A DNA stretch of 64,000 bases. Source: a virus (taxonomy: Duplodnaviria; Heunggongvirae; Uroviricota; Caudoviricetes). Both the position numbers and the translations under genes were made by a program. Location of the stretch: the IMG/VR virus record IMGVR_UViG_3300031867_000014, positions 1 through 64,000 of that record; one strand, 5' to 3'. The notes beneath the pieces were generated by a model. The model saw only the letters and a list, made by a program, of their open reading frames with translations. It was not told the DNA's origin and did no database searches. Of this stretch, positions 17,588 to 64,000 are shown piece by piece (positions within the stretch are counted from its first letter, which is position 1; every line of letters starts with the position of its first letter).

Positions 17588-18860
17588 ATTTTTTGATACC
17601 AGTGCTTTATTATCTGGATATAAACTTGACATCGAAGATTGGAATTTTATTAGTAACATTGTATTTGAAGAATTAGAACATATAAAGACATCATAGAACA
17701 AAGATGAAGCAATTAAATATAAAGCACGCTCCCTTGTGCGCTATTTAATGAAACATCGAGAACTATGGACATATAGTTGTGATGCTACACCAAAGCAGAT
17801 TGAAAAACTCCTTTCACGAAGCTCATATTTAGCAGACAACAATGATGGTAAATTAATTTGTGAAGCACGGTTATTGGCGCAATATTACCACTGTGATTCT
17901 GGTTTACCAGAAGATAAAAATCGCGAGCCAATTTTATATTTTATAACATCTGATGCATCTCAATATTTGCTCGCTACTTCATATCCAGAATTACATGCAA
18001 TGTATTATCAAGAGACGGCTCATAAAGAAGAACTCTGGACTGGGTACAAGGACGTCTACTTTGATGATGATATAGAAATGGCTTAGATTTATGAGCACCC
18101 TGAAGAGAATACAATGAAACTTGCTACTAATGAGTATGCAAAAGTATTCTATATGGGAGAACTTGCTGATCTAGTAAAATGGAATGGTGAAACACTCGAA
18201 GCCATTAAATATAAAGATTAGAATAGTGATTATTTCGGCAAGATTCAACCGCGCAATACTGAATAGAAATTATTCTTTGACTTATTACAGAATCGTGATA
18301 TTGAAATTAAATTAGTAAGAGGACAATACGGTTCGGGTAAAACTTTTTTGGCATTGGTACATGCTTTGAATTATATCAAGTGGCATAAATTTGACAAAAT
18401 CGTATATGTGAGAAATAATGTAGAAGTCGCTGGATCTCAAAGATTAGGCGCACTTCCAGGTGAGCAAGAGGATAAGTTAATGCCTTATATGATGCCGATG
18501 GCCGATATCTTGGGCGATGAAGAGGCTTTACGGCAAGAGTTAGAAATGGGTACTATTGAACCTGTGCATTTAGGTTTTATACGTGGGCGTAGCTTCAAAA
18601 ACTCTATTGTGTTTGTAGATGAAGCCGAGAATCTCACAACAGACAATATCAAGTTAATAGTGGGTCGTATAGGTGAGGGAAGTGAGCTCTGGGTACTTGG
18701 AGATGAATCCCAAACTGACTCTGATGTTTTCCGGAAAAATAGCGGCATAGCTTCACTTGTAAATAGCTTGAAAGGGAATCCGCACTTTGGTACGGTGGAA
18801 CTTCAGAAATCAGAAAGAAGTGCTATTGCTCAACTTGCCGCAGAGATCAGGGGTGCATAA
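17559..18860 (+). CDS. phoH: PhoH2-like protein (N-terminal PIN domain plus PhoH P-loop ATPase); 4 in-frame TAG codons (17694, 18084, 18219, 18264)
   Basis: TTG 17559 (RBS AAGGAAGA, 9 nt) runs in frame through ORF 17736..18086 and into ORF 18348..18860. PIN 'IKFFDTSALL' is followed by PhoH 'GQYGSGKTF...VFVDEAENLT...LGDESQTD'. The ORF caller split it into pieces. Confidence 0.7.
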
Positions 18861-26520: not shown

Positions 26521-26532
26521 TGAGGTGGGACT

Positions 26533-27528
26533 ATGGATATAACGATCATAGGACTCGCAATTGCCGCACTCTGTTTTTTAGGAATCATTTTTCTGTCAGC
26601 GTACAATCTGCGAAAACTACGAAGTGAAGAAAATAGTCTCAAAAATCGCGTAAATTAGTTACGTGAAGAAGAAGCTGACCGCGAGAAAGATTTAGCTACC
26701 ATTAAAAATTTAGTTGCTGAAAATTTGCATAAGAATGAATTGGTAGAACAAGAGGTAGCAAATAACGAGCGTCGTAAGCAAGATTTAAATAATGATATTG
26801 CGGATCAAGTTGAAAATATTGAACGTTTGAAATCATCTTTTGAAACCACAAAAGAAGAATTTGAAAAGAAATATCTGGCTGACCGCAAGAATTGGTTAGA
26901 TGATCGACAAGCGGAATATTTACAAATGCAGACAGATTTTGTAGAACAATTCCGTGAAGATAATAAACGTAAATTAGCAGCAGCACAAGAACTTAATGAA
27001 ACATTAGAAGAATTACGTTCTGCTGTTGATTCTGCAACAGAAGTAGCCAAGCGTCATGCAGAAAAAGAAAATTTCATATCTTTCCACTCGTTACAACTTG
27101 CCGCAGGAGCAAAAGAAGATATTGCGAGAATCCATACAATTTTGCCAAGCGTATCCACAATATGCGCTGAAGCGATTGCAAAAGTTATATGGAAAGTTTA
27201 TTATGAAAAAGCCTACACAGACATGGTGGGACGTGTGTTGGGAACAAGATCTTATACAGGTATTTATCGAATTACTAACAGTGTAAACGATATGTGCTAT
27301 ATTGGACAAGCTGTTGATATTGCCGACCGTTGGCGTCAACATATTAAACGTGCTCTTGGAGCAGAGCCACGTACACAAAATAAACTTTATCCAGCTATGT
27401 ATGAACTTGGTCCTGAGAATTTTACTTTTGAAGTTATAGAGGAATGTTCAAGAGAAAAATTGAATGAACGTGAAGATTATTGGCAAGATTTCTATCATGC
27501 AAAAGAATATGGGTATAGTATAAAATGA
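26533..27528 (+). CDS. membrane-anchored coiled-coil protein with a C-terminal GIY-YIG nuclease domain; 1 in-frame TAG (26656)
   Basis: ATG 26533 (RBS GAGGTGGG) encodes a TM helix, reads through TAG into ORF 26725..27528, and ends in GIY-YIG 'GIYRITN...YIGQA...R...E'. Confidence 0.55.
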
Positions 27529-36865: not shown

Positions 36866-39800
36866 TTGTTGGATATGGCGTTCTTTAATGACCACAATCA
36901 CACCGTATATAGCAATCTTAGACTTGTGGATTGTATCAATAAGCCGAAAGATCTAATTGATAGAGCAATTCAGTTAGGTCTTTCGGGTCTTGCTATAACT
37001 GACCATGAGGCTCTATGTTGTCATATTGAAGTAAATCAGTATGCGAAGAAAATTAAAGAACAGCATCCTGATTTTAAAATTGCGTTAGGTAATGAGATTT
37101 ATCTTACTGATACGCGTGAACCCCGTCAACAATATTATCATTTTATCTTGATCGCAAAAGATGCATTGGGCCATAAGGCTCTTCGTATTTTAAGTTCAAA
37201 AGCTTGGTATAATACATATTATTGGGTACAAGAGCGTGTTCCTACTCTTAAAAGTGAACTAGAAGAAGTTATGAAAGAGTATAAAGGACATGTAATTGCA
37301 ACCACCGCATGTATGGGCGGTGAAGCTTCTTCTATGTTAATGAGAGAAGCATTGGCTGCAAAAGCGGGTTTACAAGATGAACAAGCACATGCTCAATTGA
37401 CCAAGTTTATTGATTGGTGTATTAAAGTTTTTGGTAAAGAAGATTTCTATATCGAATGCGCGCCAAGTGCTTATGCAGATCAGATTGAATGTAATCATAA
37501 ATTATTGAGATTAGCTATGTCAGAAGATCTTAAGATGATTCCTGGCACAGATAGTCATTATCTTTCAAAAGATTTACGATTCGCACATAAGGCATATTTG
37601 AATTCAAAAGATGGTGAACGTGAAGTTGATGAATTCTATCAGTATGCATATCTTATGAGCGAAGAAGAAGCTCGGAATCTGCTCCGTTTAAGTTTTAATG
37701 ATGAAGCGATTTTGGATTGGCTTTTTGAAAATACTCAGATTTTGCAGAATAGCATTGAAGATTATTCTCTTGAACGTCCTCAACAGATTCCGATGGTTTC
37801 AATTAATCCTCCTGCGCCTGCTGCGTGGTGGGGTGTAAATAATCCATACGCTGATGATTTTGGTAGTGATGGATGTTATAAAACTTTAGGTTCATTGTTC
37901 ACGTCCTCAGAGCCTCAAGAGCGTCAGTGGGTAAATGATGTTTGGGAGGCACTCAATGAGAAAATTGGGTTTTGGGGAGATCATGAAGATTATGTGGCAA
38001 GACTGGAGACGGAAGCAGACGTTATTAAGTTTATTGGCGAGCGTCTTGGTACTTGTCTGTTCGCTTACTTTAATACTTTCAAGCATTATATTGATTTGTT
38101 TTGGGAGTGCGGTTCCATTGTGGGTCCTGGTCGTGGCAGCGCTACTGGGTTCCTTAGCAACTATCTTCTTGGCATTACGCAACTCGACCCGATGAAATGG
38201 AATCTTCCTTGGTGGAGATTCTTGAACAAAGAACGTGCGGAATTGCCAGACATTGATATTGATTTGGCACCAAGTGTTCGTCCCGAGATTTTTAAACGAA
38301 TTCGGGAAGAACGTGGAGAACTTGGATGTGTACAGGTTGTAACATTTGGTACAGAAGGTACAAAAAGTGCTATTCAGACAGCTTGCCGTGGTTATCGGTA
38401 TCAAGATGAAGATGGCAAAGAATTATATCCAGATGGAATCGATAATGATATTGCATTATATTTGAGTTCATTAATCCCACAAGAACGTGGATTTTTGTGG
38501 AGTTTGGATGATTGTATTAAAGGTAATGCAGATTTAGGTCGTCGTCCTGTTCATACATTAATCGCTGAATTGAATAAATATCCTGGACTATTAGAAATCA
38601 TTCAGAATATTGAAGGTGTTGTTAAACAGCGTGGTATTCATGCATCTGGCACAATTTTGTATGATGCAAATCATATCTTTGATACCGCCGCAATTATGCG
38701 TAGTAAAGAAGGAGATTTAACTACTTGTTATGATCTTCATATGTGTGAAGCGGCTGGCGATACAAAATATGACTTCTTGGTCACTGAAGTTTGCGATAAG
38801 ATGATTCAATGTTTGAATCTTTTAAAAGCAGATGGTGCGGTTGAAGATATGAGTTTGCGTGAACTATATGATAAGTATCTTCATCCAGAAGTGATTGATA
38901 CAACTGATCCACAAATTTGGGAACATCTTGCGGCAGGTGATGTATTGGACGTCTTCCAGTTCAATAGCGGTGTTGGTTTAGCGATGGCGAAAGCTATTAA
39001 AGCAACCAACCCTCTTGAAATGACTGCAGCAAATGCTATGATGCGTTTGATGTCTGAGCCTGGAATGGAAAGTCAGCAAGATCGTTATGTGCGTATTCGT
39101 GATGGTGGTTTGATTCAGTTTGATAAAGAAATGCATCGAGCCAAGTTGCCAGAGAAAATGATTGCAGCAATGCATAAATATTGTGATACATATTATGGTT
39201 GTTGCGCAATTCAGGAACAGATGATGCAAATCTTGATGGATCCTGATATTGCCAGTTTTAGTTTGAAAGATGCGAATGATGCACGCAAGATTGTTGCGAA
39301 AAAGCAGATGAAGCGTATTCCCGAATTGCGGCAAAAGGTATATGATGCAGTAGGAGAAAATGCAGATTATATCTGGGAAATCGCAGTTCGTCCGCAGTTA
39401 GGATATGCGTTTAGTTTGAATCATAGTTTGCCATATAGTTTTGTCGGTATTCAAACGATCATTCTAGCAACTAAGTTTAGTCCAGTTTATTGGAGTACAG
39501 CATGTTTGATTGTTAATAGTGGCGCAGTAGATCCCGATGCTGGCGGTCAGACAAATTATGGTAAAATTGCTAAAGCAGTTAATGACATGAAGAGTCGTGG
39601 GATTGATATTGAGCCTGTAGACATTAACACGTCAAATTATGAATTTACTCCTAATGCCGAAAAGAATCAAGTAATGTTCGGCATGAAAGGTCTATTGAAT
39701 GTCGGTGATGATATAATCGCGCAGATTATTGAAAAACGTCCATATAAGAGTTTCTTAGATTTTATAGGGCGTGTCAAGATCACTCGGCAGCCAATGATTT

Positions 39801-40762
39801 CGTTGATTAAAGCAGGCGCATTTGATCATTTTGATGAGCGTAAAAAAATTATGGCTCAATATCTATGGATGACTTGTGATAAAAAGAAGAGAATCACTCT
39901 TCAGAATATGGCAGGTTTAATTCGTAGAAATATGTTGCCAGCAGAATTAAATGATCAGCGTCGAGTATTTGAATTCAATAGATATCTCAAAGATCAATGT
40001 AAACACCCGATAGCACCAGGTGGATATCTATTGGACGAAAGAGCGATGGGGTTCTTGCAAACTTATGAGCGAGAGCTTGACATTGAAATCAAAGCGGGTG
40101 CATATTGGATTAATGAAAAAGTATGGGATAAAGAATATCAGCGGCAAATGGATAAAGTGCGCGAATGGATGAAAAATAATCAAGCAGAAGCACTTTATCA
40201 GTTAAACAAGACAATTTTCCAAGAAGATTGGAATAAATATGCAATGGGGAACTATTCGTCATGGGAAATGGAAGTTATGTGCTTCTATTATCATGAACAT
40301 GAATTAGCCAATGTGAATCGCACAAGATATGGCCTCAGTGATTATGCTCAGTTGCCAGAAGAACCAGTGGTGGAAACTCTATGGCGGAATCGTATTCCGA
40401 TTTATAGATTAAGTCGTATCGCAGGAACAGTGATTGCAAAGAATAAGATTAAATCTACCATTGATCTTTTGACAACATCCGGAGTTGTAACCGTGAAATT
40501 TTCAAAAGAGTTTTTCGCATTATTTGATCGTCAGATCAGTCAACGTGGCGCGGATGGTGTGAAACATGTGGTTGAAAAATCATGGTTCAATCGTGGAAGT
40601 ATGTTGGTCGTAACAGGTATGCGCCGTGGTGATGAATTTGTATCGAAGAAATATTCAGCGACTCCTGGACATCAGTTGTATAAAATTGATACGATATTTG
40701 CTAACGGCAACATAGCACTGAGAGCAGAAAGAGCACAGGGAGAAAGCGATGAAAGCGAGTAA
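36866..40762 (+). CDS. DNA polymerase III alpha subunit (PHP domain plus DnaE/PolC-type catalytic core)
   Basis: N-terminal PHP 'HNHTVYS...ITDHE'; 1298 aa. Confidence 0.85.
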   Translation: MLDMAFFNDHNHTVYSNLRLVDCINKPKDLIDRAIQLGLSGLAITDHEALCCHIEVNQYAKKIKEQHPDFKIALGNEIYLTDTREPRQQYYHFILIAKDALGHKALRILSSKAWYNTYYWVQERVPTLKSELEEVMKEYKGHVIATTACMGGEASSMLMREALAAKAGLQDEQAHAQLTKFIDWCIKVFGKEDFYIECAPSAYADQIECNHKLLRLAMSEDLKMIPGTDSHYLSKDLRFAHKAYLNSKDGEREVDEFYQYAYLMSEEEARNLLRLSFNDEAILDWLFENTQILQNSIEDYSLERPQQIPMVSINPPAPAAWWGVNNPYADDFGSDGCYKTLGSLFTSSEPQERQWVNDVWEALNEKIGFWGDHEDYVARLETEADVIKFIGERLGTCLFAYFNTFKHYIDLFWECGSIVGPGRGSATGFLSNYLLGITQLDPMKWNLPWWRFLNKERAELPDIDIDLAPSVRPEIFKRIREERGELGCVQVVTFGTEGTKSAIQTACRGYRYQDEDGKELYPDGIDNDIALYLSSLIPQERGFLWSLDDCIKGNADLGRRPVHTLIAELNKYPGLLEIIQNIEGVVKQRGIHASGTILYDANHIFDTAAIMRSKEGDLTTCYDLHMCEAAGDTKYDFLVTEVCDKMIQCLNLLKADGAVEDMSLRELYDKYLHPEVIDTTDPQIWEHLAAGDVLDVFQFNSGVGLAMAKAIKATNPLEMTAANAMMRLMSEPGMESQQDRYVRIRDGGLIQFDKEMHRAKLPEKMIAAMHKYCDTYYGCCAIQEQMMQILMDPDIASFSLKDANDARKIVAKKQMKRIPELRQKVYDAVGENADYIWEIAVRPQLGYAFSLNHSLPYSFVGIQTIILATKFSPVYWSTACLIVNSGAVDPDAGGQTNYGKIAKAVNDMKSRGIDIEPVDINTSNYEFTPNAEKNQVMFGMKGLLNVGDDIIAQIIEKRPYKSFLDFIGRVKITRQPMISLIKAGAFDHFDERKKIMAQYLWMTCDKKKRITLQNMAGLIRRNMLPAELNDQRRVFEFNRYLKDQCKHPIAPGGYLLDERAMGFLQTYERELDIEIKAGAYWINEKVWDKEYQRQMDKVREWMKNNQAEALYQLNKTIFQEDWNKYAMGNYSSWEMEVMCFYYHEHELANVNRTRYGLSDYAQLPEEPVVETLWRNRIPIYRLSRIAGTVIAKNKIKSTIDLLTTSGVVTVKFSKEFFALFDRQISQRGADGVKHVVEKSWFNRGSMLVVTGMRRGDEFVSKKYSATPGHQLYKIDTIFANGNIALRAERAQGESDESE

Positions 40763-49866: not shown

Positions 49867-51804
49867 TTATCGTACTTTAATCCAAATACGATTATTGACT
49901 TTTACATTGCCTGTACCCCAAGTTTCATACTCTGGAATTTCTGAAACAATACCTACAATACAATCAGGATACATCATTATTTCTTCACGAGTCATAATAT
50001 CAACAGTGCCATTGGGCGCTGAACAAACGGCCATGCCCGCATGATATTCTGAACGATCACGGTATGGATAAACTAAAACTCGACCAGAAACAGCTAAAGG
50101 CGTTTTAGTAGTTTCAGTTTCACCAATAGCAAAACCAAATGTGTCTGATACTACCGATGCGCCTGGAAGTAATCTTTTATCTGTAATATTTAAAGAACCA
50201 TCGTCATTATCTACAACACATTGTCCTGGTTGAGCTTCTTTATTAGTTTTACGTAATTCAGCATAGTCATTCCAAACAGCACCATAAATTAATGCATCTG
50301 TTTCTGTTTTTTTAGTCGTACCATTTGCAGAGATATAAAGACCAAAATAAGTACTAGCTGTACTATCAGCCAAGTAACGGTATGCGTATATACGATTACG
50401 GACAACGCCACTAGTATCAACATAACAATATAACATACCCAAACGATTTTTTGCAGCAGTACCAGTACCAGCTTCTAAAATCTAAATATAAGGACCAGTT
50501 GATGCACTTGGATTTGTACCTTTAGTAACTGTCGTACGTAAACCTAAATTACCAGTTAAAGTTCCACCGCTTAATTTTAAATATGTGCTATCATGATTAT
50601 GATTACCGACGGCAACAGTTGTGGCCGTAGTACCAGTAGGAAGTGTAAATGCCAATGCACCAGCACCACCATTGGCAGTTGCTGTATATGTAAAATTACT
50701 CCAAGAACCTGTTGTATGATAATAGTTAGTGGTAGTATCTGCTGGTGTTTTAAACACAACTGTTGTTCCGCCCGCTGTCAATGTATAAGCTGTATCGGCA
50801 GCCAAATTTATAGTAGCTGTACCGCCAGCTGCTAAACTTGTAGTATGAGTGTGATTACCAGCCGCCGCGGTGGATGCAGTGCTACCTATTGTTAATAATG
50901 TAGGCATAGTAAAAATTACTGATGATCCACCTGCTGTTAATTTATATTTTCCTGCAGATGCAAGTGTAATACTGCTTGTACCAGTATCAGTAGCCAGAGA
51001 TGCAGTATGTGTATGATTACCAGCTGCAGCAGTAGTTGCAGTAGAACCAATTTTAGGTGCATATGTATCTGGTTTACCAGTCACATTACTCCAAGCAACT
51101 CCACCAGCAGTACCAGTACAATTGCCGGTGATGGATGCGGTAATACCACCGGGCACTGTTATATGACCAGTTGATGGATTAATGGTTGCTACTTTAGTGG
51201 TATCATTAGGAATAACACCATATAAATCTTTACTACCAGAAGTAAAAGCAGTATATGCACCAGCATTACTAGTAGAGGCACCGACAATTGGTAACTCTGT
51301 TGTTGATGCAAGAGCATAAGTCCGCTGTAATGTATTCGTGTTTGTATCATAATAAGCATTAGTGCGCCAATCGGTACCTGTCCAGGTCATTACCATTACA
51401 GTACCCGCTGGATAATGCGTGGTTAAACGTGTATTACCAGCATAGACTGCATAGGCTGATGTTTGAGAGCCATCAGCTAAAGTTAAAATTAAAGATGCAT
51501 TACCACTACCGTCTTTTGGTAATCTATATGCAATCGTTTTACCAACATATAATGCTGGACTTCTGGTAACACCAGTCCAGGTACCAGTTGCTGCAGTTTG
51601 TGTACCATTAATATATTCAACACCGTCTAAAGACGTATCCGCTTGGGCTGCATTTAAACATATGCGGCTAGTTAAAGAAGCACTAGTTGCGGTGCTAAGA
51701 TCTACATAAAACTTATGATCATCGGTCGTAACATAGCAATAGCCTTCTGTACTATTGGCCGGTAAATTTGCGGCCAAGCCTTTTTTTATTTTAAAAAGTG
51801 CCAA
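49867..51804 (-). CDS. tail fiber protein with internal 'AAAGNHTHT.SLA' repeats; 1 in-frame TAG (50482)
   Basis: ORFs 50482..51804 and 49867..50442 are in frame across a TAG. TTG start with RBS GTGAGGTG. Repeats are visible at both DNA and protein level. Confidence 0.7.
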
Positions 51805-51830
51805 TCTTCAGCACCTCACTTATATTTAAA

Positions 51831-56245: not shown

Positions 56246-56458
56246 TTAATTATTTATGTCCTTCTCAATCCAATCTGGTAAATCGCAAGGATAAATAATA
56301 ATAGGACTATATACGCAATGTTGAGTACGTGTATTATATAAATACTTATAAGGTTCAGGAGATAACCACACACAGCGCAAATAAGTTTCTTCACCAGAAT
56401 CATTTGGCGCATTATGATAGTGACCTAAAGAATCTTCATATAAATAAGCCATTAGCAT
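56246..56458 (-). CDS. small hypothetical late protein
   Basis: RBS AAGGAAGGAG; an upstream TGA separates it from the giant ORF. Confidence 0.5.
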   Translation of the reverse strand: MLMAYLYEDSLGHYHNAPNDSGEETYLRCVWLSPEPYKYLYNTRTQHCVYSPIIIYPCDLPDWIEKDINN

Positions 56459-56479
56459 ATGTCATAATCTCCTTCCTTA

Positions 56480-59400
56480 TTAAGATGTAAATAATACTGT
56501 AGTAGCGATAGAATCATTCGCAACTTTTGGAACCGCACCAAAATGTGTTTCTTTCCAAGTCTTAAATGAACTATCAAGAGCATAAAATGCTTCTGCACTC
56601 TGTTCTAAATTAGCAGCTGTACTATTTTGTATAGTAATGATAACATTTTTTAACTTCGCCTAATTCAAACAATTTTCATTGAAATTATAAGCTCCAGCCT
56701 TTAAGCGTACTGCGTCTAATGTCCAATAAATTGTATCATTAAATGTAACGCCATAAAATGCTCCAGCTTCCATACCCATAATATTTGCACTAATTGAAGT
56801 TAAAACAACAGAGGTGTTACCAAAAACGTTTGCTTTTAATTGAGTAACATTATTTGGAACAAAAGCTAAACGTAAATTAGAACAATTGTAGAAAGCACTA
56901 GAACCTAATGTCTGTAAGTTTTGACCGCTACGAGTATATGCGGCTTCATCCTCAAACATTGATAATTGTGAACAACCATTAAATGCACTATTACCAATCT
57001 CAGTAATATATGGGAATAGGTAAGAAGCAGCCCAGCATAAATTTGTACATTGAGCGAATGCATTAGCACCAATATTGGCGAGATAAGTAATATTGACTTC
57101 TGCCGCATTATCATGTTGAGCATCATATAATGCTACTGTTGTTAAACCAACACAGTTTTCAAAACATGAACGTCCAATATATCTTATGGCTTGTGGGAAA
57201 CGTGCAACATCTAATGTTGTGCAATTCTTAAATGTATAAGCACCAAGAGTAACCATTGCTGCTGGTAAAGCAGTACCAACTTTTAAGCTATTACAATACA
57301 TAAAAGCGCCTTCTGCGGTAGAATTGTTTTCACCAATCATTTTTAAATTTGGACAACCAGCAAAATCTACATAATCCAAATTATAACCAGCAAAAGCAAA
57401 GGAATGAATATATTGTAAAGTATTACCAGCTTCAAAATAAATGCGGCGTAATGGCGCATCCGTAGCAGAAGCTAATGCTTCTTCTAAAGCGGGCTTAGCA
57501 CTTGCTGTAGTACCGGGATCAGCTAATTTTTTCACATAATAATTCGCTGCTCGTTTAGTATTATTTAAACCAACAACAGTCTAACCATTATATGTTTTTG
57601 GTATAGTAACCGCGGTATATGGATAATTATCCTTCAAAGTTAACATTACACCAGTAATTGTGCTAGAATCTGCAGTTACTTGTTGTGTTACTGACGATGA
57701 AGTAAACCAGCTTTCAGCTGTCGCAACATCTTGCATATTCTATGGATTACTAAATTGTGGATAAATTTTAACAGTATAACTATTATTTTCACTACCATGA
57801 GTTACTTGTTTCCATTCATTACCCCAATTAATTGTGGTATATACTGTCGTATGTGTTCTATCATTTTCATCACAAACGATTTTTACAATACCCAAATTTA
57901 AAGTGGCAGGATCAGTAGCAGATTCACGATAACGTACCGATTGTACATTAGCTACACCAGCTGTTAATGGATCGTCGGAATTATAGAATTTAACTGTATA
58001 ACGAGTAATTTCTGCAACATATACTGGATAAAAATTAACTTCACGATGCTTATTATCAGGAGTCAATGCAAAATCATCAGCAAAAGTATAAGTAGTACCA
58101 TTATATACATATAAGTTGTCTGTCTTAATGTATTCATTTAATTCTGCTTGCTTTTCTTCTTCAGTCACAGCATTAGCACTTGGCGTCCAAATATTATTTT
58201 CATTTAATAAATCAATAATTTCATCACTCTTATAATAAGTTATTTCACTATTATAAGTTGTTGGATTATTTTCATTAATCGTTGTCCAAGAGACATCTAC
58301 ATAAATACTAGAAGCTGCACGCGCTGCTGCATGTGCTTGCGCTAAAGCCGCTTCTGGATTTTGAGATTGATTAGTTGCTGCTTCAATAAACAAGTCAGTG
58401 TCTTCATCATCAGAAGTCTTAAAACCAACCAAACGATAAGTATATTGTACTTCTTTCGGCTTACCAAATTCACGGACATCTAAATGTGCACATAATTGCT
58501 GCGCAGATAATGTTGGCACAACATCAAAAGTATACTATTTAGTAAAATTAGTAATTGCAGTTTTATTAGTATTAAAGAATGAAACAGTATAAGAAGATGT
58601 TACTAAATCATTAGTATCATAAGCGATCTCTAAATTTGGATAACAACCACTATATTTTTCTTTAATTGCAACTGCATTAAGGCCATAATTCATACCGTTA
58701 TTAATTTTAATGGTACCACCAACATAATAACGTGTTGCAACTTTTGAGTTAGAAGTCGTAGACCATGGAGCAGAACCTTCAAGACCAGCTGTAGTAATTA
58801 ATTGATTTAAAATTGGGAAATCAACAATCATTGTGCCACTGGCATCAAGAGTACATTCAGTTGGATCTGTTGGATCTAATTTCCAATTCAAATCTGTTAA
58901 TTGAATATGCGCGACTGCATTGGTTTTATTCTTTGCAGCCTTAAATAAAGATTTTGTATCTAATTTTGGACAACCAGAAATATCTAAGTAGTCCAAACTT
59001 TCCCAACCATCATTATCACATTGTACTGTGGTTAATAATGGCTAATCATGTAATGCTAAAGTAGTTAATGTATTAGGTACATAAACTGTCTCTAAAATAC
59101 CGCCAACCGGGAATGATACAGTATTCAAATATGTATTTTTTGCAGAGAAGATTCTTAAATAGGTATTTGAAGATACATCTGCTGCCGTTAAAGACATATA
59201 TTGATTATCTAAGTTGGCCACTTGTAACAATGGATATAAACCACCATCAAAACGAGTCCATGGATTCTTTTCATTATTACCATTCAAACCGCGATTATTG
59301 CGTTGAGCTTGCTGATAAGCATTAAGAGATACATCAAATTCACGCAATTTAAATTGAGTATTAACACCACTATTATTAGTAACGTTAATATTAGCCATAC

Positions 59401-62400
59401 CCAAATAACCCAAATTACCTAAATGAGTAATATTTTGTACGAATAGCATTATAGCTTCTTGTTCATCAGTTGGCATATTATCAAAGCGTACAGCATTTGT
59501 CTCGCCTTCTGGAATATAAATTGGACCACGTGGGCTGCCTTGCGTTAAAGAGTTAGCACTAAAGTTGATCCAAACATAACTTGAGTCATCAGCAGTTAAA
59601 TTCAAAGTATACTATTTACGTTCAGTCTCAGTATAGTCTGAACTAGCTGGTAATGGATTTACACGGAAGCTATATTTAAATGCGGAACCATCTGCAGCAT
59701 ATTTACCATCCAAAAGCAACAAGCGACGTTTAAGCCATTGTTTACGATGCTCAGAACGAGTACCTTGTGCCGCATATAACAAATCAGAATAGTTAGTGTC
59801 ACGCACTTGCCAATACTGAGAATGATCGGGTTGTTGATACTCAGAATTATCCTGCTCATTTGCGACACTATCAATTAAGACGTGTTGACCACTTGAATTG
59901 TATAACCAGTTAGGTTCATCTTTCGGACGAATATACTTATACCATTCATCTTGGTTAATTAATGTTTCTACCCAAGCATTAGCTAATTTATTATTATAAG
60001 TATTAAGTAAGAAATTCAAATTCAAATTACCTTTACGCATCTGACGATACATAACAGCAACAGGACTTGAATAACCATTTGCAAAACACAATCTAAAGTT
60101 AGCCCATAAAACGCTATATTCACCAGAACCGTTAGGATCAATATTACCCTATGCATCACGTGGATAATCTGCAGTTGTATTATAAATACCGAAATTAGTA
60201 TCACGTACATCATAACGATATACTAATTTACCAGTATTATTAACACCCATTGCCGTGTCCATATCGTAGAAAATAGGATACCAAATACCAGTACCAGTTT
60301 CATTATCAGCATCATATGAGACCATCATCATATTTTTCGCACGACTGTCCATTAATACTTCTAATTCTGTCATAATATAATAGAAAGTAACAAAATCACG
60401 ATCCATATGTCTATCAAATTCATTTTTAAATTTTGCTAAACGATATTCGGCAGAATCGGTCGTATAAGTTACACCATCTAAAGTAACTTCTGGAATTGGA
60501 TTATTGGTCGCTGTTTTCATATTGGTAGACGCTAACCAATTTAAAAATGCACTAAATGCACGTTTATCTGTCATCTACTGATTATCATAATCAGGATAAC
60601 GTGATTCATAACCCGCGATCCAAATTGGGTATGGATCTGTCATGCCAATCTATTGATTATTTTCATCATAAGTTGGTTTTGGATCTTTATCAGCATTATC
60701 ATCCCATGGAGTTCTAAATGATGTCAAATCATTATTATTGTTTTTCATTTCCCAGCATTGAATGGAATTACGCTTTTCTTTATAAAGATATAATGGAGCA
60801 GTCTTTAAATAATTTGCATAATTCTTTGCAGCAGTTTCTTCACTATTCGGTGTCCATGGCACCATTTGATAAATACCATCTTGTAATACATACTTATAGT
60901 AAGTTTGTTCAGGATCATAAGGTAAATCTTTAGGCGAATCAACAATCGCTTCATACCCTGGTACAAAATCATTACCGTTCTTTACAAAACCAAAACCAGT
61001 AGCTTCATCAGAGAAGAAACCGAATAAATCAGCTTGGCTCTTATCTAAGTTAAAATTATAACGACCAATATATTCATATTTATCAAATGAATCTTCGCCA
61101 GTAAAACCGTTTGCATCTGTAGGATCAATACCAACCGGATAATAAAAGATAACACATGGACGACCTTTAATGGCAGTCAATAATGTTGTATTAGCATATT
61201 GATGACTAGTATTTTTTAAAGCTGCTTTTGGAGTTAATTCAATATTAGCAGAAGCATATAAATCATTGAGCTAATTAGCAGTACCAGTATTATGTGACAT
61301 AGAGCTATCCATATAATCAGCTTTCAATGTAAATATTTTACAAGCCGGAATATCAGAAAATAATTTATATTTCTTTTTTACAGTATTAAGACGTAAGTTT
61401 TTAACCGGATATTCTAATGAAGATGTGCCCTGTGGATAAATTGTACAATGCCATCTATCAGCAGATGTAGCTGTAAAACCAATAATTTTACCTTGAGAAT
61501 TTTTCTAAATAGACTCCATATTAATACCAAAGCAACGATCTTCATCATTAGGATCAACGAAATATGCTTCTACATAACGGTAGTCTTTTTTATCAAAATA
61601 TGGTAAACTAACTTCTGCATTATCGGCACTTTGTGTCATCTTAGTACCTTTTTTATCAGTACGATAACCACCACGTAATACCAAATAAGGAATTGATGCA
61701 CTTTCAATAACTTTTTGTAAAGATACATAAGAATATTTACCTGCGGCATTATATTCAGTAACGTTATTTGCTGCTTTACGAGCCATGGCAGCGTCTGCAT
61801 CGCCCAAACCAGCTAAATAGTTATCTAATACGGCTTCTGCACTTAAAGCTTTACCATAGAAACGGAAATTATATAATTCAATATCTGCATATGTAGAATC
61901 GAAAATAGTAGCAGTTAAAATACCTTCACCAGAGTCTTGACGCAAACGCATATTAGAATCACGCGCAACAATGCCTGAAAGTACACCATTAACATATACA
62001 TAAATATAATTGCGTGGTGTACGTGTATCAATATCAGCATCATTACGAGCGATAACATAACAAATATGTACGCGTTCATCTGCACTATAATAAGCCACTA
62101 AACCATTAACATTATCACCAACTACGCCTTTAGTCTGCATATCAGTTAATACTTTAGTGCTAGTATCAGTTAATGCAAAATAGTCACCAGTAGCAATAAT
62201 ACCTACAACAGGTTCATCTGATTCCCAGTTTTCACGTTGTGTATTATAACTGGCACAATTAATAATACGCTGTTTACGATCACGAATATTAGAAATTTTT
62301 ACATCAAATTCAATAGTCTTACCAGTCGTAATAGCGCCTGTATAAGATGCAGTGTTACTATTAAAAGCGCCATAGAAAGGTGCGACAGGGAAGGTCAATT

Positions 62401-64000
62401 TTGCACCATTGTTCAATACTAATTTATTTTTATTAGCATTAACCGCAAACCAACCATTAGTAGTCCAGTTAAAATTCTTAAATTGAGCTTCCACAATAGT
62501 ATTACCAATAGCTTGCGCGCCACCCGCCGCAGTTTCTTGCCCATCTGGATTAAACCAAGTTGTAGACCAATTCTCCTTATTAGGAGAAGTTTCATTCTTA
62601 TCTGGTGTAAAATCGAATTGAGCATCAGCAGTAACAATAGGCATAACACCAGAACTACCTGAAATTGTATATTCTTGTGGACTAGTAACTGTTTGTTTGT
62701 TAGCACCACTACCAACTGTTAAGACTAATTGGTATACACCTTCATTTTCAAATGCTACATCCCACGTTAAATTCTAACCAATAGTAAAATTCTGTAAGAT
62801 ATCACGATCAATCACAAAAATACCATTATCATTTTTCTTGTACATCAAAAGATGTCCTTCTAATGAAGTCACTTGCGCAGAAGGATAAGAAACACGATAA
62901 ACAACTTTTACATTGGACGCATAGGCGGCATATGATGATTCAGAAGGCCAAGATAATACATTAATACGAGGCACTGGATTCGATGGATCAACGAACATAA
63001 CACTTTGTGATAATGTAGCGCTTGTAATAGTTGTATTACCGATAGTGCCGCTTACTTGAGTAATTACTGTAACAGGACGACCTGCCTGATATGTTAAAGT
63101 AATATGTGAAGCAGTACCATTAGTGATATTTAAAATTTCACCAGTCTGATAAGAAGTACCATACTGTTGGTCAATTACTGAATAAATAATTTTTGGATTA
63201 CGAATTAATGCAGAGTCATAACGAGGTACAACACCATATGATGCATCACCATCAAAGTCTTGAAGTGACTCGGTTTCTGGAGTTACATACAAAGATGCTA
63301 AAGCTAAAGATAAAGTTTGTGATGCACTTCTATTATTACCATCAGTAAAGATTACTGCTAAACTATATTGATGGTTTTCAGAAAAGGTATGTCTATCTAA
63401 CTGTTCATGAATATAATTTTTAATATCGTAATCAACAATGGTATTTCTAGTTGCACTTGGTTGAATATTTTCCATTGTAAATAATTTTGTATTACTGCTG
63501 CGATCATAAACCTCAATATCAATTTGATTGGTTAAACCTTCAATTTCAGATTCTGAATAAGCAACATAACGCAAAATCATTGAATCAGCGGTAGTAGAAT
63601 ATGCAACAGAACGACTAACAAGAGTCGCTGCAAATGTACTGGCTACACCACCACCACCAGTACCGCCACCACCAGAGCCATTACCCGCAACGGTCATGCG
63701 GCGAGTTGTCACTAATTGTAATGTTTCATCTACGCGGTCTACACGGAAAAATGAACCATTAGTTTCATCAAAAATGACATCATCGGTTTTTGGTAAATTA
63801 ATAACAACGGGTTCATCTGGATCGGTTAAATCTAATACGCCTTCGATTTCGTTAAAGTAGAAATTAAAATCAGTTTCAACTTCAGCGAATTCTTTTGAGC
63901 TGTAAAAGAATCCACTAGATCCACCAAATGCTAAACGATCATGTAAGGTATGTGATTCAGAATCAGTAAAATCACAATCTAAATAAATCTTTTTAGTATC
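56480..64000 (-). CDS. giant (>2500 aa) virion adhesin/tail protein with C-terminal BspA-type leucine-rich repeats; at least 12 in-frame TAG codons; the 5' end lies beyond the window
   Basis: Eleven consecutive ORF-track pieces (62774..63712 down to 56660..57535) are all in one frame across TAGs, with open gaps (extra TAGs at 57581, 60575 and ~61270). The frame is still open beyond 63712 to the window edge. It ends with TAA at 56480. LRR_5-like repeats 'AFxxCxxLxxI' and a Gly-rich 'GNGSGGGGTGGGG' segment are present. Confidence 0.7.

What the first reader, a model, noticed from the sequence alone, without database searches (positions are those of the whole stretch)
56480..64000. Giant (>2500 aa) recoded virion protein with BspA-type LRRs, fragmented into 11 or more pseudo-ORFs by standard-code callers
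Eleven consecutive minus-strand ORFs share one frame, with 2-70 codon open gaps each closed only by TAG. That has a chance probability of roughly (1/3)^10. The ORF is still open at the window edge. The C-terminal region carries BspA-like leucine-rich repeats typical of surface-binding proteins of gut anaerobes. It is probably the main adsorption or tail-needle apparatus. Its recoding density is about 1 TAG per 600 nt.
Basis: partly seen in the sequence, partly recalled or inferred. Interest (0 to 1): 0.7.

Follow-up and report, generated by a model that had tools for sequence, protein, structure and literature searches.

The report
Giant amber-recoded phage tail-fibre gene
This is one 2,553-residue phage tail-fibre-type gene whose 12 in-frame TAG "stops" are almost certainly read as glutamine; it is a clear but already well-known kind of phage stop-codon recoding, in a known but unstudied family of giant proteins.

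Summary
One minus-strand frame is open from 64000 to 56483. It is interrupted 12 times, always by TAG, and ends in TAA-TAA. The full gene is 2,553 codons, and its ATG with a strong ribosome-binding site lies 141 nt beyond the window edge. A public database already holds it translated with TAG=Gln.

Nine gene copies in related phages are each broken only by TAG, and eight complete ones were aligned. They carry 118 TAGs, mostly at different positions. The residue opposite a TAG is Gln 4 to 5 times more often than background (p about 1e-32). No internal ribosome-binding sites follow the TAGs. TAG never terminates a gene on the contig. Late genes carry 35 TAGs and 17 replication and metabolism genes carry none. 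The closest 149-kb relative encodes a CUA-anticodon tRNA in a region lying beyond our contig's end.

Verdict: real and correctly read, but a new member of known kinds. The "tail needle" idea has no support.

The parts
56480..64000 (-). Giant ORF: codons 48-2553 plus the TAA stop. The ATG start and first 47 codons lie 141 nt beyond the window edge.
   Evidence: The frame is open except for 12 TAGs. It is identical to database protein P0001 (2553 aa) with every TAG written as Q.
56477..56482 (-). Tandem terminators TAA-TAA that end the giant ORF
62774..62776 (-). In-frame TAG 1 (P0001 residue 456). The nearest ortholog has Gln CAA here.
61505..61507 (-). In-frame TAG 2 (residue 879). The nearest ortholog has Gln CAA.
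61271..61273 (-). In-frame TAG 3 (residue 957). The nearest ortholog also has TAG.
60650..60652 (-). In-frame TAG 4 (residue 1164)
60575..60577 (-). In-frame TAG 5 (residue 1189)
60149..60151 (-). In-frame TAG 6 (residue 1331), inside the CotH-like core
59612..59614 (-). In-frame TAG 7 (residue 1510)
59042..59044 (-). In-frame TAG 8 (residue 1700). The nearest ortholog has Gln CAG.
58535..58537 (-). In-frame TAG 9 (residue 1869). The nearest ortholog has Gln CAA.
57740..57742 (-). In-frame TAG 10 (residue 2134). Ortholog P0004 also has TAG.
57581..57583 (-). In-frame TAG 11 (residue 2187)
56660..56662 (-). In-frame TAG 12 (residue 2494). The 59 codons after it contain no ATG, GTG or TTG.
63692..64000 (-). 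Conserved all-beta N-terminal domain (the window holds residues 48-150). It contains the motif DG-LYFATD-KKIYLD, also present at the N-termini of four neighbouring fibre-like genes. Presumed virion-attachment module.
63644..63685 (-). Gly-rich linker GNGSGGGGTGGGGV
   Evidence: Conserved as a poly-Gly stretch in all relatives.
62582..63634 (-). Beta-sandwich (Ig/FN3-like) region, residues about 170-520
59642..61504 (-). CotH-kinase-like core (residues 880-1500), the best-conserved part of the protein family
60332..60349 (-). Invariant motif D-S-R-A-K-N (residues 1265-1270). Candidate catalytic loop; this role is inferred.
   Evidence: D, R, K and N are invariant in the 9-sequence core alignment. 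Coordinates checked.
60245..60268 (-). Invariant motif Y-D-x-D-T-x-x-G (residues 1292-1299). Candidate metal-binding motif; this role is inferred.
58622..59464 (-). Internal LRR-like region (residues about 1560-1840)
   Evidence: Weak. Pfam LRR_8 is found in 2 of 4 orthologs, not in this protein.
56591..57421 (-). C-terminal BspA-type leucine-rich repeats (residues about 2241-2517). Presumed receptor-binding module.
   Evidence: Pfam LRR_5 E=1.8e-28, three stretches. PDB profile hits 4fs7 at 2.6e-41 and 4gt6 at 3.6e-35.
56246..56458 (-). 70-aa ORF directly downstream. Its position and size (68-71 aa) are conserved after the giant gene in four loci. It may be a fibre assembly factor; that is a guess.

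Best explanation
The region encodes most of one 2,553-aa late structural protein of a large tailed phage. Relatives have genomes of roughly 150-190 kb, and the host is probably a Clostridia-type Firmicute. This lineage reads TAG as a sense codon, most likely glutamine (genetic code 15).

Proposed mechanism. Early genes for replication and nucleotide metabolism contain no TAG, so the host's standard machinery can translate them. A phage-encoded tRNA with anticodon CUA then accumulates. It is seen in the closest full-length relative, at a position beyond the end of our contig. Once it is present, ribosomes read through TAG in the late genes for fibres, lysin and holin-like proteins.

With 12 TAGs, full-length yield is the per-codon suppression efficiency to the 12th power: 28% at 0.9 and 0.02% at 0.5. 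This gene can therefore be made only when reassignment is nearly complete.

The product is a modular tail-fibre or receptor-binding protein. In order it has: an N-terminal all-beta domain whose motif is shared with four neighbouring fibre genes (virion attachment); a Gly linker; beta-sandwich spacers; a conserved CotH-kinase-like core of unknown role; LRR-like and repeat modules; and a C-terminal BspA LRR module that would contact the host surface.

Shown: the reading frame, the TAG-only interruptions, the TAG/Gln correspondence, the late-gene bias, the domain homologies, and the suppressor tRNA in a relative. Inferred: the timing model, presence in the virion, the receptor-binding role, and any kinase activity.
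For: Frame and TAGs. Full length, and a start codon preceded by gaaggagg.

One PHROG profile aligns as a single stretch over window residues 97-1709, crossing 8 TAGs.

Nine gene copies in related phages (P0001-P0004, L008-L012) are interrupted only by TAG; one of them (L011) is cut by its contig end. In an alignment of the eight complete orthologs, 118 TAGs fall in 104 columns. The residue opposite a TAG is Gln in 83 of 599 cases, against a 2.8% background (p=1.6e-32), and these are mostly CAA codons, two mutations away from TAG. TAG also falls in otherwise invariant Gln columns (Q23, Q904, Q1459). BLOSUM scoring ranks Q first at 36.0, then S at 17.9, with Y at -155 and L at -167.

Distant homologs in standard-code phages are single uninterrupted ORFs: Hankyphage 2,245 aa, NatCom_3357 1,673 aa, and a Clostridia MAG 2,054 aa.

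There are no SD-preceded restarts. Stop usage is TAA/TGA only. The late module has 35 TAGs in 8,399 codons; 17 early genes have 0 in 8,638.

A tRNA(CUA) lies on the same 149-kb contig as a giant-gene ortholog.

Domains. Neighbourhood and shared N-terminal motif.

Literature: late-gene TAG recoding (bioRxiv 10.1101/2021.08.26.457843); proteomic proof of TAG=Gln in a fragmented tail-related protein of a crAss-like phage (PMC9523058).
Against: No tRNA of any kind lies on the 73-kb contig itself, so the decoding agent for this particular phage is inferred from a relative.

That relative's CUA tRNA is unusual. It is 92 nt with a long variable arm and is not similar to the phage's own tRNA-Gln. Its amino-acid identity is therefore open, and Ser is the second-best fit.

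There are no proteomic or virion data for this phage.

PHROG and Pfam give no 'tail' annotation for the giant protein itself. The N-terminal fold search found nothing specific.

The CotH-core model has low overall confidence (pLDDT 51.7).

A few plus-strand genes, including a PhoH-like gene, also carry TAGs, so the early/late split is not absolute.
Confidence: 0.9

Rival explanations
1. TAG is reassigned, but to serine or another polar residue rather than glutamine. The decoder would be the long-variable-arm CUA tRNA, charged by SerRS, which recognises the variable arm rather than the anticodon.
For: The CUA tRNA of the closest full-length relative is 92 nt with a variable arm of about 20 nt, and is at most 52% identical to that phage's Gln, Ser and Leu tRNAs. 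In several clade members the CUA tRNA sits next to tRNA-Ser(UGA). Ser ranks second in the BLOSUM test. That SerRS recognises the long variable arm is my own knowledge.
Against: Gln is enriched 4.1-fold opposite TAG, while Ser is enriched only 1.4-fold. The Q score is twice the S score. In the closest pair, 10 of the 14 aligned P0002 TAG positions are Gln in P0001, one more is TAG in both, and only 2 are Ser. TAG sits in invariant Gln columns. TAG=Gln is the experimentally validated phage code (PMC9523058).
Confidence: 0.07
2. The TAGs are true stops. The region would then be a string of separate small genes, or a decaying pseudogene of a once-giant gene.
For: A standard-code reading gives 10-11 ORFs, and no suppressor tRNA lies on this contig.
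Against: All 12 interruptions are TAG (P about 1e-9), and no TAA or TGA occurs in 2,507 codons. The segments have no RBS or nearby start, and the last has no start codon at all. Protein-level conservation runs across the TAGs in nine related gene copies, and the TAG positions differ between them. TAG never ends a gene on the contig. The same pattern is seen in the neighbouring fibre and lysin genes.
Confidence: 0.01
3. Suppression is deliberately partial. The gene would then yield a ladder of N-terminal products ending at successive TAGs, all sharing the attachment domain, alongside a little full-length protein. The result would be fibres of several lengths.
For: Twelve TAGs make full-length yield very sensitive to suppression efficiency (arithmetic, inferred). 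Every truncation would retain the conserved N-terminal domain.
Against: TAG positions are not conserved between orthologs (12 of 104 TAG columns are shared), so no particular truncated product is under selection. The C-terminal LRR module is conserved in all orthologs, which implies that full-length protein matters. TAG is never used as a terminator elsewhere on the contig.
Confidence: 0.05

Closest known systems
Genetic code 15 (TAG read as Gln) recoding of late genes in gut phages: crAss-like, Lak, the 'gemstone' clades of Borges et al. (bioRxiv 10.1101/2021.08.26.457843), Phassvirus (PMC10607447), and proteomic validation (PMC9523058)
   Same: TAG-only in-frame interruptions concentrated in structural and lysis genes, with TAG-free replication genes. 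TAG aligns with Gln in relatives. A CUA tRNA is encoded by a close relative. A tail-related protein is fragmented into many pseudo-ORFs under the standard code.
   Different: This is a different phage lineage. Its PolIII-alpha is closest to Phass-1, SPbeta-like and Enterococcus phages, at only about 38% identity. The suppressor tRNA of the nearest relative has a long variable arm. No suppressor lies on the available contig. Assignment to a named clade was not tested, because no terminase gene is in the window.
Giant (over 2,000 aa) CotH-domain multi-domain phage proteins, including the Hankyphage p00 DGR target and putative tail fibre (BK010646 31489-38226; PMC6199706, PMC12135933, PMC8008677, bioRxiv 10.1101/2024.11.15.621889 'domain group 3')
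   Same: The size class is the same. Both have a conserved CotH-kinase-like core roughly 600-1,300 residues from the N-terminus, LRR modules, and a location in the tail-fibre gene block. There is direct sequence homology: tblastn 38% over 100 aa, and hmmer E about 1e-24 over 43% of the query.
   Different: The C-terminal binding module here is a BspA LRR_5 array rather than a DGR-diversified C-type lectin. No TR/VR repeat lies nearby, and no reverse transcriptase showed up among the genes scanned. The gene is TAG-recoded. The host is probably a Firmicute rather than Bacteroides.
Bacillus CotH spore-coat protein kinase (PDB 5JDA/5JD9; Pfam PF08757)
   Different: Sequence identity is about 11%. 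The Pfam CotH model does not hit this protein directly. The domain carries large insertions and is embedded in a 2,553-aa structural protein. Catalytic competence is untested.
BspA-like LRR surface proteins of gut anaerobes (Pfam LRR_5; PDB 4fs7, 4gt6, 4h09)
   Same: The repeat type is the same, with a strong profile match.
   Different: Here the repeats are the C-terminal module of a phage protein rather than part of a bacterial cell-surface adhesin.

Membership tests
Stop-codon-recoded phage genes (TAG as a sense codon, code 15) | In-frame stops of one type only, in an otherwise intact conserved ORF | tested here: met
   12 of 12 stops are TAG, with no TAA or TGA in 2,507 codons. Homology is continuous across the TAGs.
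Stop-codon-recoded phage genes (TAG as a sense codon, code 15) | The recoded codon is not used as a terminator in the genome | tested here: met
   15 late genes and 24 plus-strand ORFs of 200 aa or more all end in TAA or TGA, none in TAG.
Stop-codon-recoded phage genes (TAG as a sense codon, code 15) | TAG aligns with glutamine in homologs | tested here: met
   83 of 599 residues opposite TAG are Gln, against a 2.8% background (p=1.6e-32). Q ranks first in BLOSUM scoring.
Stop-codon-recoded phage genes (TAG as a sense codon, code 15) | A suppressor tRNA with anticodon CUA encoded by the phage | tested here: inconclusive
   There is none on the 73,465-bp contig. One is present in the closest full-length relative, at a syntenic position beyond our contig's end. 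The literature reports detection in only about 40% of TAG-recoded genomes (10.1101/2021.08.26.457843).
Stop-codon-recoded phage genes (TAG as a sense codon, code 15) | Peptides that span TAG positions | not testable with these tools
   This needs metaproteomics of the source sample.
Giant CotH-domain phage fibre and variable proteins | Sequence homology to family members over the core | tested here: met
   hmmer E from 1e-24 to 1e-40 against proteins of 2,000-3,000 aa that carry Pfam CotH. The core profile finds 4,607 cluster representatives, mostly 1,400-2,900 aa.
Giant CotH-domain phage fibre and variable proteins | A CotH kinase-like fold in the core | tested here: met
Giant CotH-domain phage fibre and variable proteins | A DGR-diversified C-type lectin at the C-terminus (defines the DGR subgroup only) | tested here: not met
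   The C-terminus is LRR_5. No TR/VR-like repeat involves the gene.
CotH protein kinases (Pfam PF08757) | A match to the Pfam model above its gathering threshold | tested here: not met
   There is no CotH hit for this protein, even at E up to 1. Only homologs hit the model.
CotH protein kinases (Pfam PF08757) | Catalytic residues conserved, and kinase activity | not testable with these tools
   The invariant motifs DxRxKN and YDxDT exist, but no residue-level alignment to 5JDA could be obtained.
BspA-type LRR (Pfam LRR_5) | A match above the gathering threshold | tested here: met
   99.4 bits against a cut-off of 27.7, E=1.8e-28.
Phage tail fibre / receptor-binding protein | Presence in the virion and binding to the host surface | not testable with these tools
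   The support is contextual only: the gene lies among fibre-like genes that share its N-terminal motif, upstream of the lysis genes, and it is homologous to the Hankyphage putative tail fibre.

The most novel reading that the evidence does not exclude
The invariant CotH-kinase-like core may be catalytically active. The giant fibres of this very large family (over 1,500 diverged representatives) would then be virion-borne enzymes that phosphorylate or otherwise modify a host-surface or virion substrate during adsorption, with interchangeable C-terminal binding modules (BspA LRR here, DGR lectin in Hankyphage). Separately, the clade's long-variable-arm CUA tRNA may be a new structural class of phage amber suppressor.
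Probability: 0.2. Interest if true: 0.6.

Novelty: new member of a known kind. Interest (0 to 1): 0.3.

Why it matters
On the practical side, this is a clean example of how standard-code gene calling shreds the largest and most host-specific gene of a recoded phage. Host-range and receptor-binding-protein predictions for such phages are wrong unless code 15 is applied.

On the biological side, a 12-TAG, 2,553-codon gene is an extreme test of how efficient phage-driven reassignment must be.

The analysis also links TAG-recoded, probably Firmicute-infecting large phages to the unstudied family of giant CotH-domain fibres already known from Bacteroides Hankyphages. The CotH-like core is shared across the family, while the C-terminal binding module differs between the two members compared here. 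None of this changes current understanding. The recoding and the protein family are both already described.

Tried and rejected
- Megablast of the gene and of 20 kb of the window against GenBank phages found nothing. An exact-match search in IMG/VR found nothing. Single-protein scans of IMG/VR and GTDB found no close relative.
- Profile searches of PDB sequences with the core alignments did not reach CotH; they returned only chance hits. No residue-level mapping of catalytic residues was therefore possible.
- Pfam at permissive thresholds gave nothing significant for the N-terminal motif, the region I had guessed to be LamG-like, the internal LRR, or the repeats I had guessed to be Listeria-Bacteroides-type. 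I have dropped those by-eye resemblances (Mtd_N, LamG, Flg_new) as claims.
- PHROGs gave no functional label for the giant protein and only weak fibre, needle or fibritin hits for two neighbours. 'Tail needle' is rejected for lack of any support.
- A DGR was considered because of the Hankyphage homology. It is rejected because there is no TR/VR repeat and no lectin module.
- Pyrrolysine decoding was considered because ARAGORN labels CUA tRNAs 'Pyl'. It is rejected as a labelling convention: the tRNA does not resemble the short tRNA-Pyl (my own knowledge), and Lys-like residues are only 1.9-fold enriched opposite TAG, against 4.1-fold for Gln.
Full report
**Observation.** On the minus strand, the frame that begins at window position 64000 holds 12 stop codons before position 56482. 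All 12 are TAG. The frame then ends in TAA-TAA at 56482-56477. The other two sense frames of the same stretch hold 146 and 386 stops, of which only 18% are TAG. Twelve TAGs out of twelve therefore has a probability of about 1e-9. The absence of TAA and TGA over 2,507 codons has a probability between 1e-61 and 1e-99. Under the standard code, the frame breaks into 13 segments, ten of which are listed as ORFs of 40 aa or more.

**Source and full length.** The window is the reverse complement of positions 9062-73061 of an ENA metagenome contig (ERZ27256863 k141_1511219, 73,465 bp). On that contig the ORF begins 141 nt beyond the window edge, at an ATG preceded by gaaggagg, and is 2,553 codons long with the same 12 TAGs. 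The public protein collection already holds this product (P0001) with every TAG written as Q. A Logan assembly of SRR9036512 is identical over 12,465 bp, so the TAGs are not an artefact of one assembly.

**Is it one protein?**
- A single PHROG profile (phrog_14959) aligns in one stretch over window residues 97-1709, crossing eight TAGs.
- Four database orthologs (P0001-P0004, 30-56% identical) and five IMG/VR loci (L008-L012) carry the same gene. Every copy is interrupted only by TAG, with 10-28 TAGs per complete gene.
- In an alignment of eight complete orthologs, 118 TAGs occupy 104 columns and only 12 columns are shared.
- The residue opposite a TAG is Gln in 83 of 599 comparisons, against a 2.8% background. 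Gln is the most enriched residue, at 4.1-fold (p=1.6e-32). These Gln codons are mostly CAA, two mutations from TAG, and TAG also falls in otherwise invariant Gln columns.
- BLOSUM scoring of all 20 candidate residues ranks Q first (36.0), then S (17.9) and E (7.5). Y and L score -155 and -167.
- More distant homologs in standard-code genomes are single uninterrupted ORFs: Hankyphage p00 at 2,245 aa, phage NatCom_3357 at 1,673 aa, and a Clostridia MAG at 2,054 aa.

- Real gene starts in this module, including the giant ORF's own, are preceded by AGGAGG or GGAGG.
- None of the next in-frame starts after the first 11 TAGs has such a motif. After the 12th TAG there is no ATG, GTG or TTG at all.
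- The 7.5-kb sense strand holds only two SD-like pentamers, and neither lies upstream of an in-frame start.
- TAG never terminates a gene. The 15 late genes and 24 plus-strand ORFs of 200 aa or more all end in TAA or TGA.

**Genome context and mechanism.**
- The 16 genes of the fibre and lysis module carry 35 TAGs in 8,399 codons, 13.6% of Gln-type codons.
- Seventeen replication and metabolism genes carry none in 8,638 codons. These include gyrase, PolIII-alpha, helicase, primase, ligase and NrdD.
- A few plus-strand genes do carry TAGs, among them a PhoH-like gene.
- This is the pattern described for recoded gut phages. There, early genes are readable by the host, and late structural and lysis genes require a code switch driven by a phage suppressor tRNA (bioRxiv 10.1101/2021.08.26.457843). 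Metaproteomics has shown TAG=Gln in a tail-related protein of a crAss-like phage that the standard code splits into six pieces (PMC9523058).

**The suppressor tRNA.**
- No tRNA or any Rfam family is found anywhere on the 73-kb contig.
- In the wider clade, a tRNA array lies upstream of the DUF2828 gene (window 3731-5248). Of the 60 such loci scanned, 32 contain a tRNA with anticodon CTA.
- The closest full-length relative is IMGVR_UViG_3300028833_000076, 149 kb. It carries a giant-gene ortholog with 10 TAGs, and its PolIII-alpha and DUF2828 are 75% and 81% identical to ours.
- In that relative the CTA tRNA lies 14.8 kb upstream of DUF2828. Rfam confirms it as a tRNA at 55 bits.
- Our contig ends 4.1 kb upstream of DUF2828, so the array would lie just beyond the assembly.
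- The tRNA is odd. It is 92 nt with a variable arm of about 20 nt, and is at most 52% identical to that phage's own Gln, Ser and Leu tRNAs. I therefore keep 'TAG = Ser' as a minor rival.
- With 12 TAGs, full-length yield equals suppression efficiency to the 12th power, so near-complete reassignment is required (inference).

**What the protein is.**
- Pfam finds LRR_5 (BspA type) at the C-terminus, E=1.8e-28. A profile of the orthologs hits the solved BspA-like LRR proteins 4fs7, 4gt6 and 4h09.
- The best-conserved part is a core of about 620 residues (880-1500), with invariant motifs QGTSS, KAD, NFNxDK, DxRxKN and YDxDTxxG.
- Pfam CotH does not hit this protein, but it hits 5 of 9 aligned homologs, best E 5e-10.
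- An AF2 model of the core has low overall confidence (pLDDT 51.7). Even so, Foldseek's only two hits with E below 1 are B. cereus CotH kinase 5jda and 5jd9.
- A profile of the core finds 4,607 cluster representatives at 50% identity (1,562 at E of 1e-30 or better). Nearly all of the best 150 are 1,400-2,900 aa.
- The literature has noted this family without studying it. [quoted passage not shown] Another describes DGR variable proteins of over 2,000 aa with CotH-kinase motifs, carbohydrate-binding motifs and LRRs in Bacteroides prophages (bioRxiv 10.1101/2024.11.15.621889).
- The Hankyphage member is the DGR target, called the putative tail fibre (PMC6199706, PMC12135933). It lies directly after the minor tail protein. 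The NatCom_3357 homolog lies downstream of the tape-measure and Dit genes.

**Neighbourhood.** The giant gene sits among fibre-like genes with coiled-coil or fibritin-like features and repeated GNHTHT motifs, upstream of a SpoIID-NlpC/P60-PG_binding-SH3 lysin. Five genes in the block, including the giant one, share an N-terminal motif, K-G...(D/E)G-LYF-TD...Y. A wider set of LRR_5-ending giants shares the whole N-terminal domain of about 130 aa plus a poly-Gly linker. A model of residues 1-300 (pLDDT 71.9) is all-beta, with no specific structural match. A role in virion attachment is therefore only an inference.

**Host.** Three things point to a Firmicute (Clostridia) host rather than Bacteroides. 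Strong SD sites precede the genes. The lysin architecture fits Gram-positive targets. The nearest PolIII-alpha relatives are Phass-1, SPbeta-like and Enterococcus phages, at about 38% identity, and the only GTDB hit is a Clostridia MAG. This was not tested further.

**Comparison and verdict.** The recoding is a textbook instance of phage code 15. The protein is a new, non-DGR, LRR-tipped member of the giant CotH-domain fibre family.

Interest is modest at 0.3. The residual novelty lies in the unstudied kinase-like core of these fibres, and in the long-variable-arm CUA tRNA of the clade.

Noticed in passing
L114 1810-1901 (IMGVR_UViG_3300028833_000076); also L087 3720-3812, L092 8234-8324, L079 7259-7347, L053 782-872: The amber-suppressor (anticodon CTA) tRNAs of this phage clade fall into two size classes, 71-76 nt and 89-95 nt. 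The long class has a variable arm of about 20 nt, an A1:C72 mismatch and G73. It is conserved (92% identity between two relatives) yet at most 52% identical to the phages' own Gln, Ser and Leu tRNAs. Which amino acid it carries is unknown.
   Followed up: partly
window 1-5248 and L013; L034-L113: A tRNA array lies upstream of the DUF2828 (TROVE-like) gene in most relatives. Our contig ends 4.1 kb upstream of that gene, which probably explains why the 73-kb contig has no tRNA at all. Relatives' contigs run to 150-200 kb, so the contig is a fragment of a large genome.
   Followed up: yes
L114 3846-3959; window 3731-5248 (+): There is a sub-threshold Rfam YrlA (Y RNA-like) match (36 bits, E=5.6e-5) inside the relative's tRNA array. 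It lies in the same genome region as the DUF2828/DUF7788 gene, which I take to be TROVE/Ro60-like. That suggests a phage Ro60/Y-RNA-like pair.
   Followed up: no
window 49867-51807 (-): The database call for this fibre gene starts at the ATG at 51390, which has no SD. The conserved N-terminal fibre motif (KKGLAANLP...EGYCYVTTDD..FYVD) lies upstream of that. A TTG at 51804, with GAGGTG a few nt upstream, is the likelier start, giving about 645 aa instead of 507.
   Followed up: partly
window 56246-56458 (-): A 70-aa ORF directly follows the giant gene. Its position and size (68-71 aa) are conserved in four orthologous loci, though its sequence is weakly conserved. It may be a fibre assembly factor.
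   Followed up: partly
window 807-2138 (+), 2565-3326 (+), 17514-18860 (+), 26524-27528 (+): Four plus-strand genes also carry in-frame TAGs (4, 3, 4 and 1): a repeat-rich surface-type protein, an SH3-domain protein, a PhoH-like ATPase and a coiled-coil protein. Recoding is therefore not confined to the minus-strand late block. PhoH is also listed among the TAG-containing genes of the Phassvirus group (PMC10607447).
   Followed up: partly
window 50593-51065 (-): Diverged internal direct repeats in the neighbouring fibre gene encode repeated GST-A-(S/T)-TAAAGNHTHT motifs.
   Followed up: no
window 36875-40759 (+) against the giant gene: Between this phage and its IMG/VR relatives, PolIII-alpha is 65-78% identical while the giant fibre is only about 30% identical. 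The fibre evolves much faster than the replication core, as expected for a host-range determinant.
   Followed up: partly
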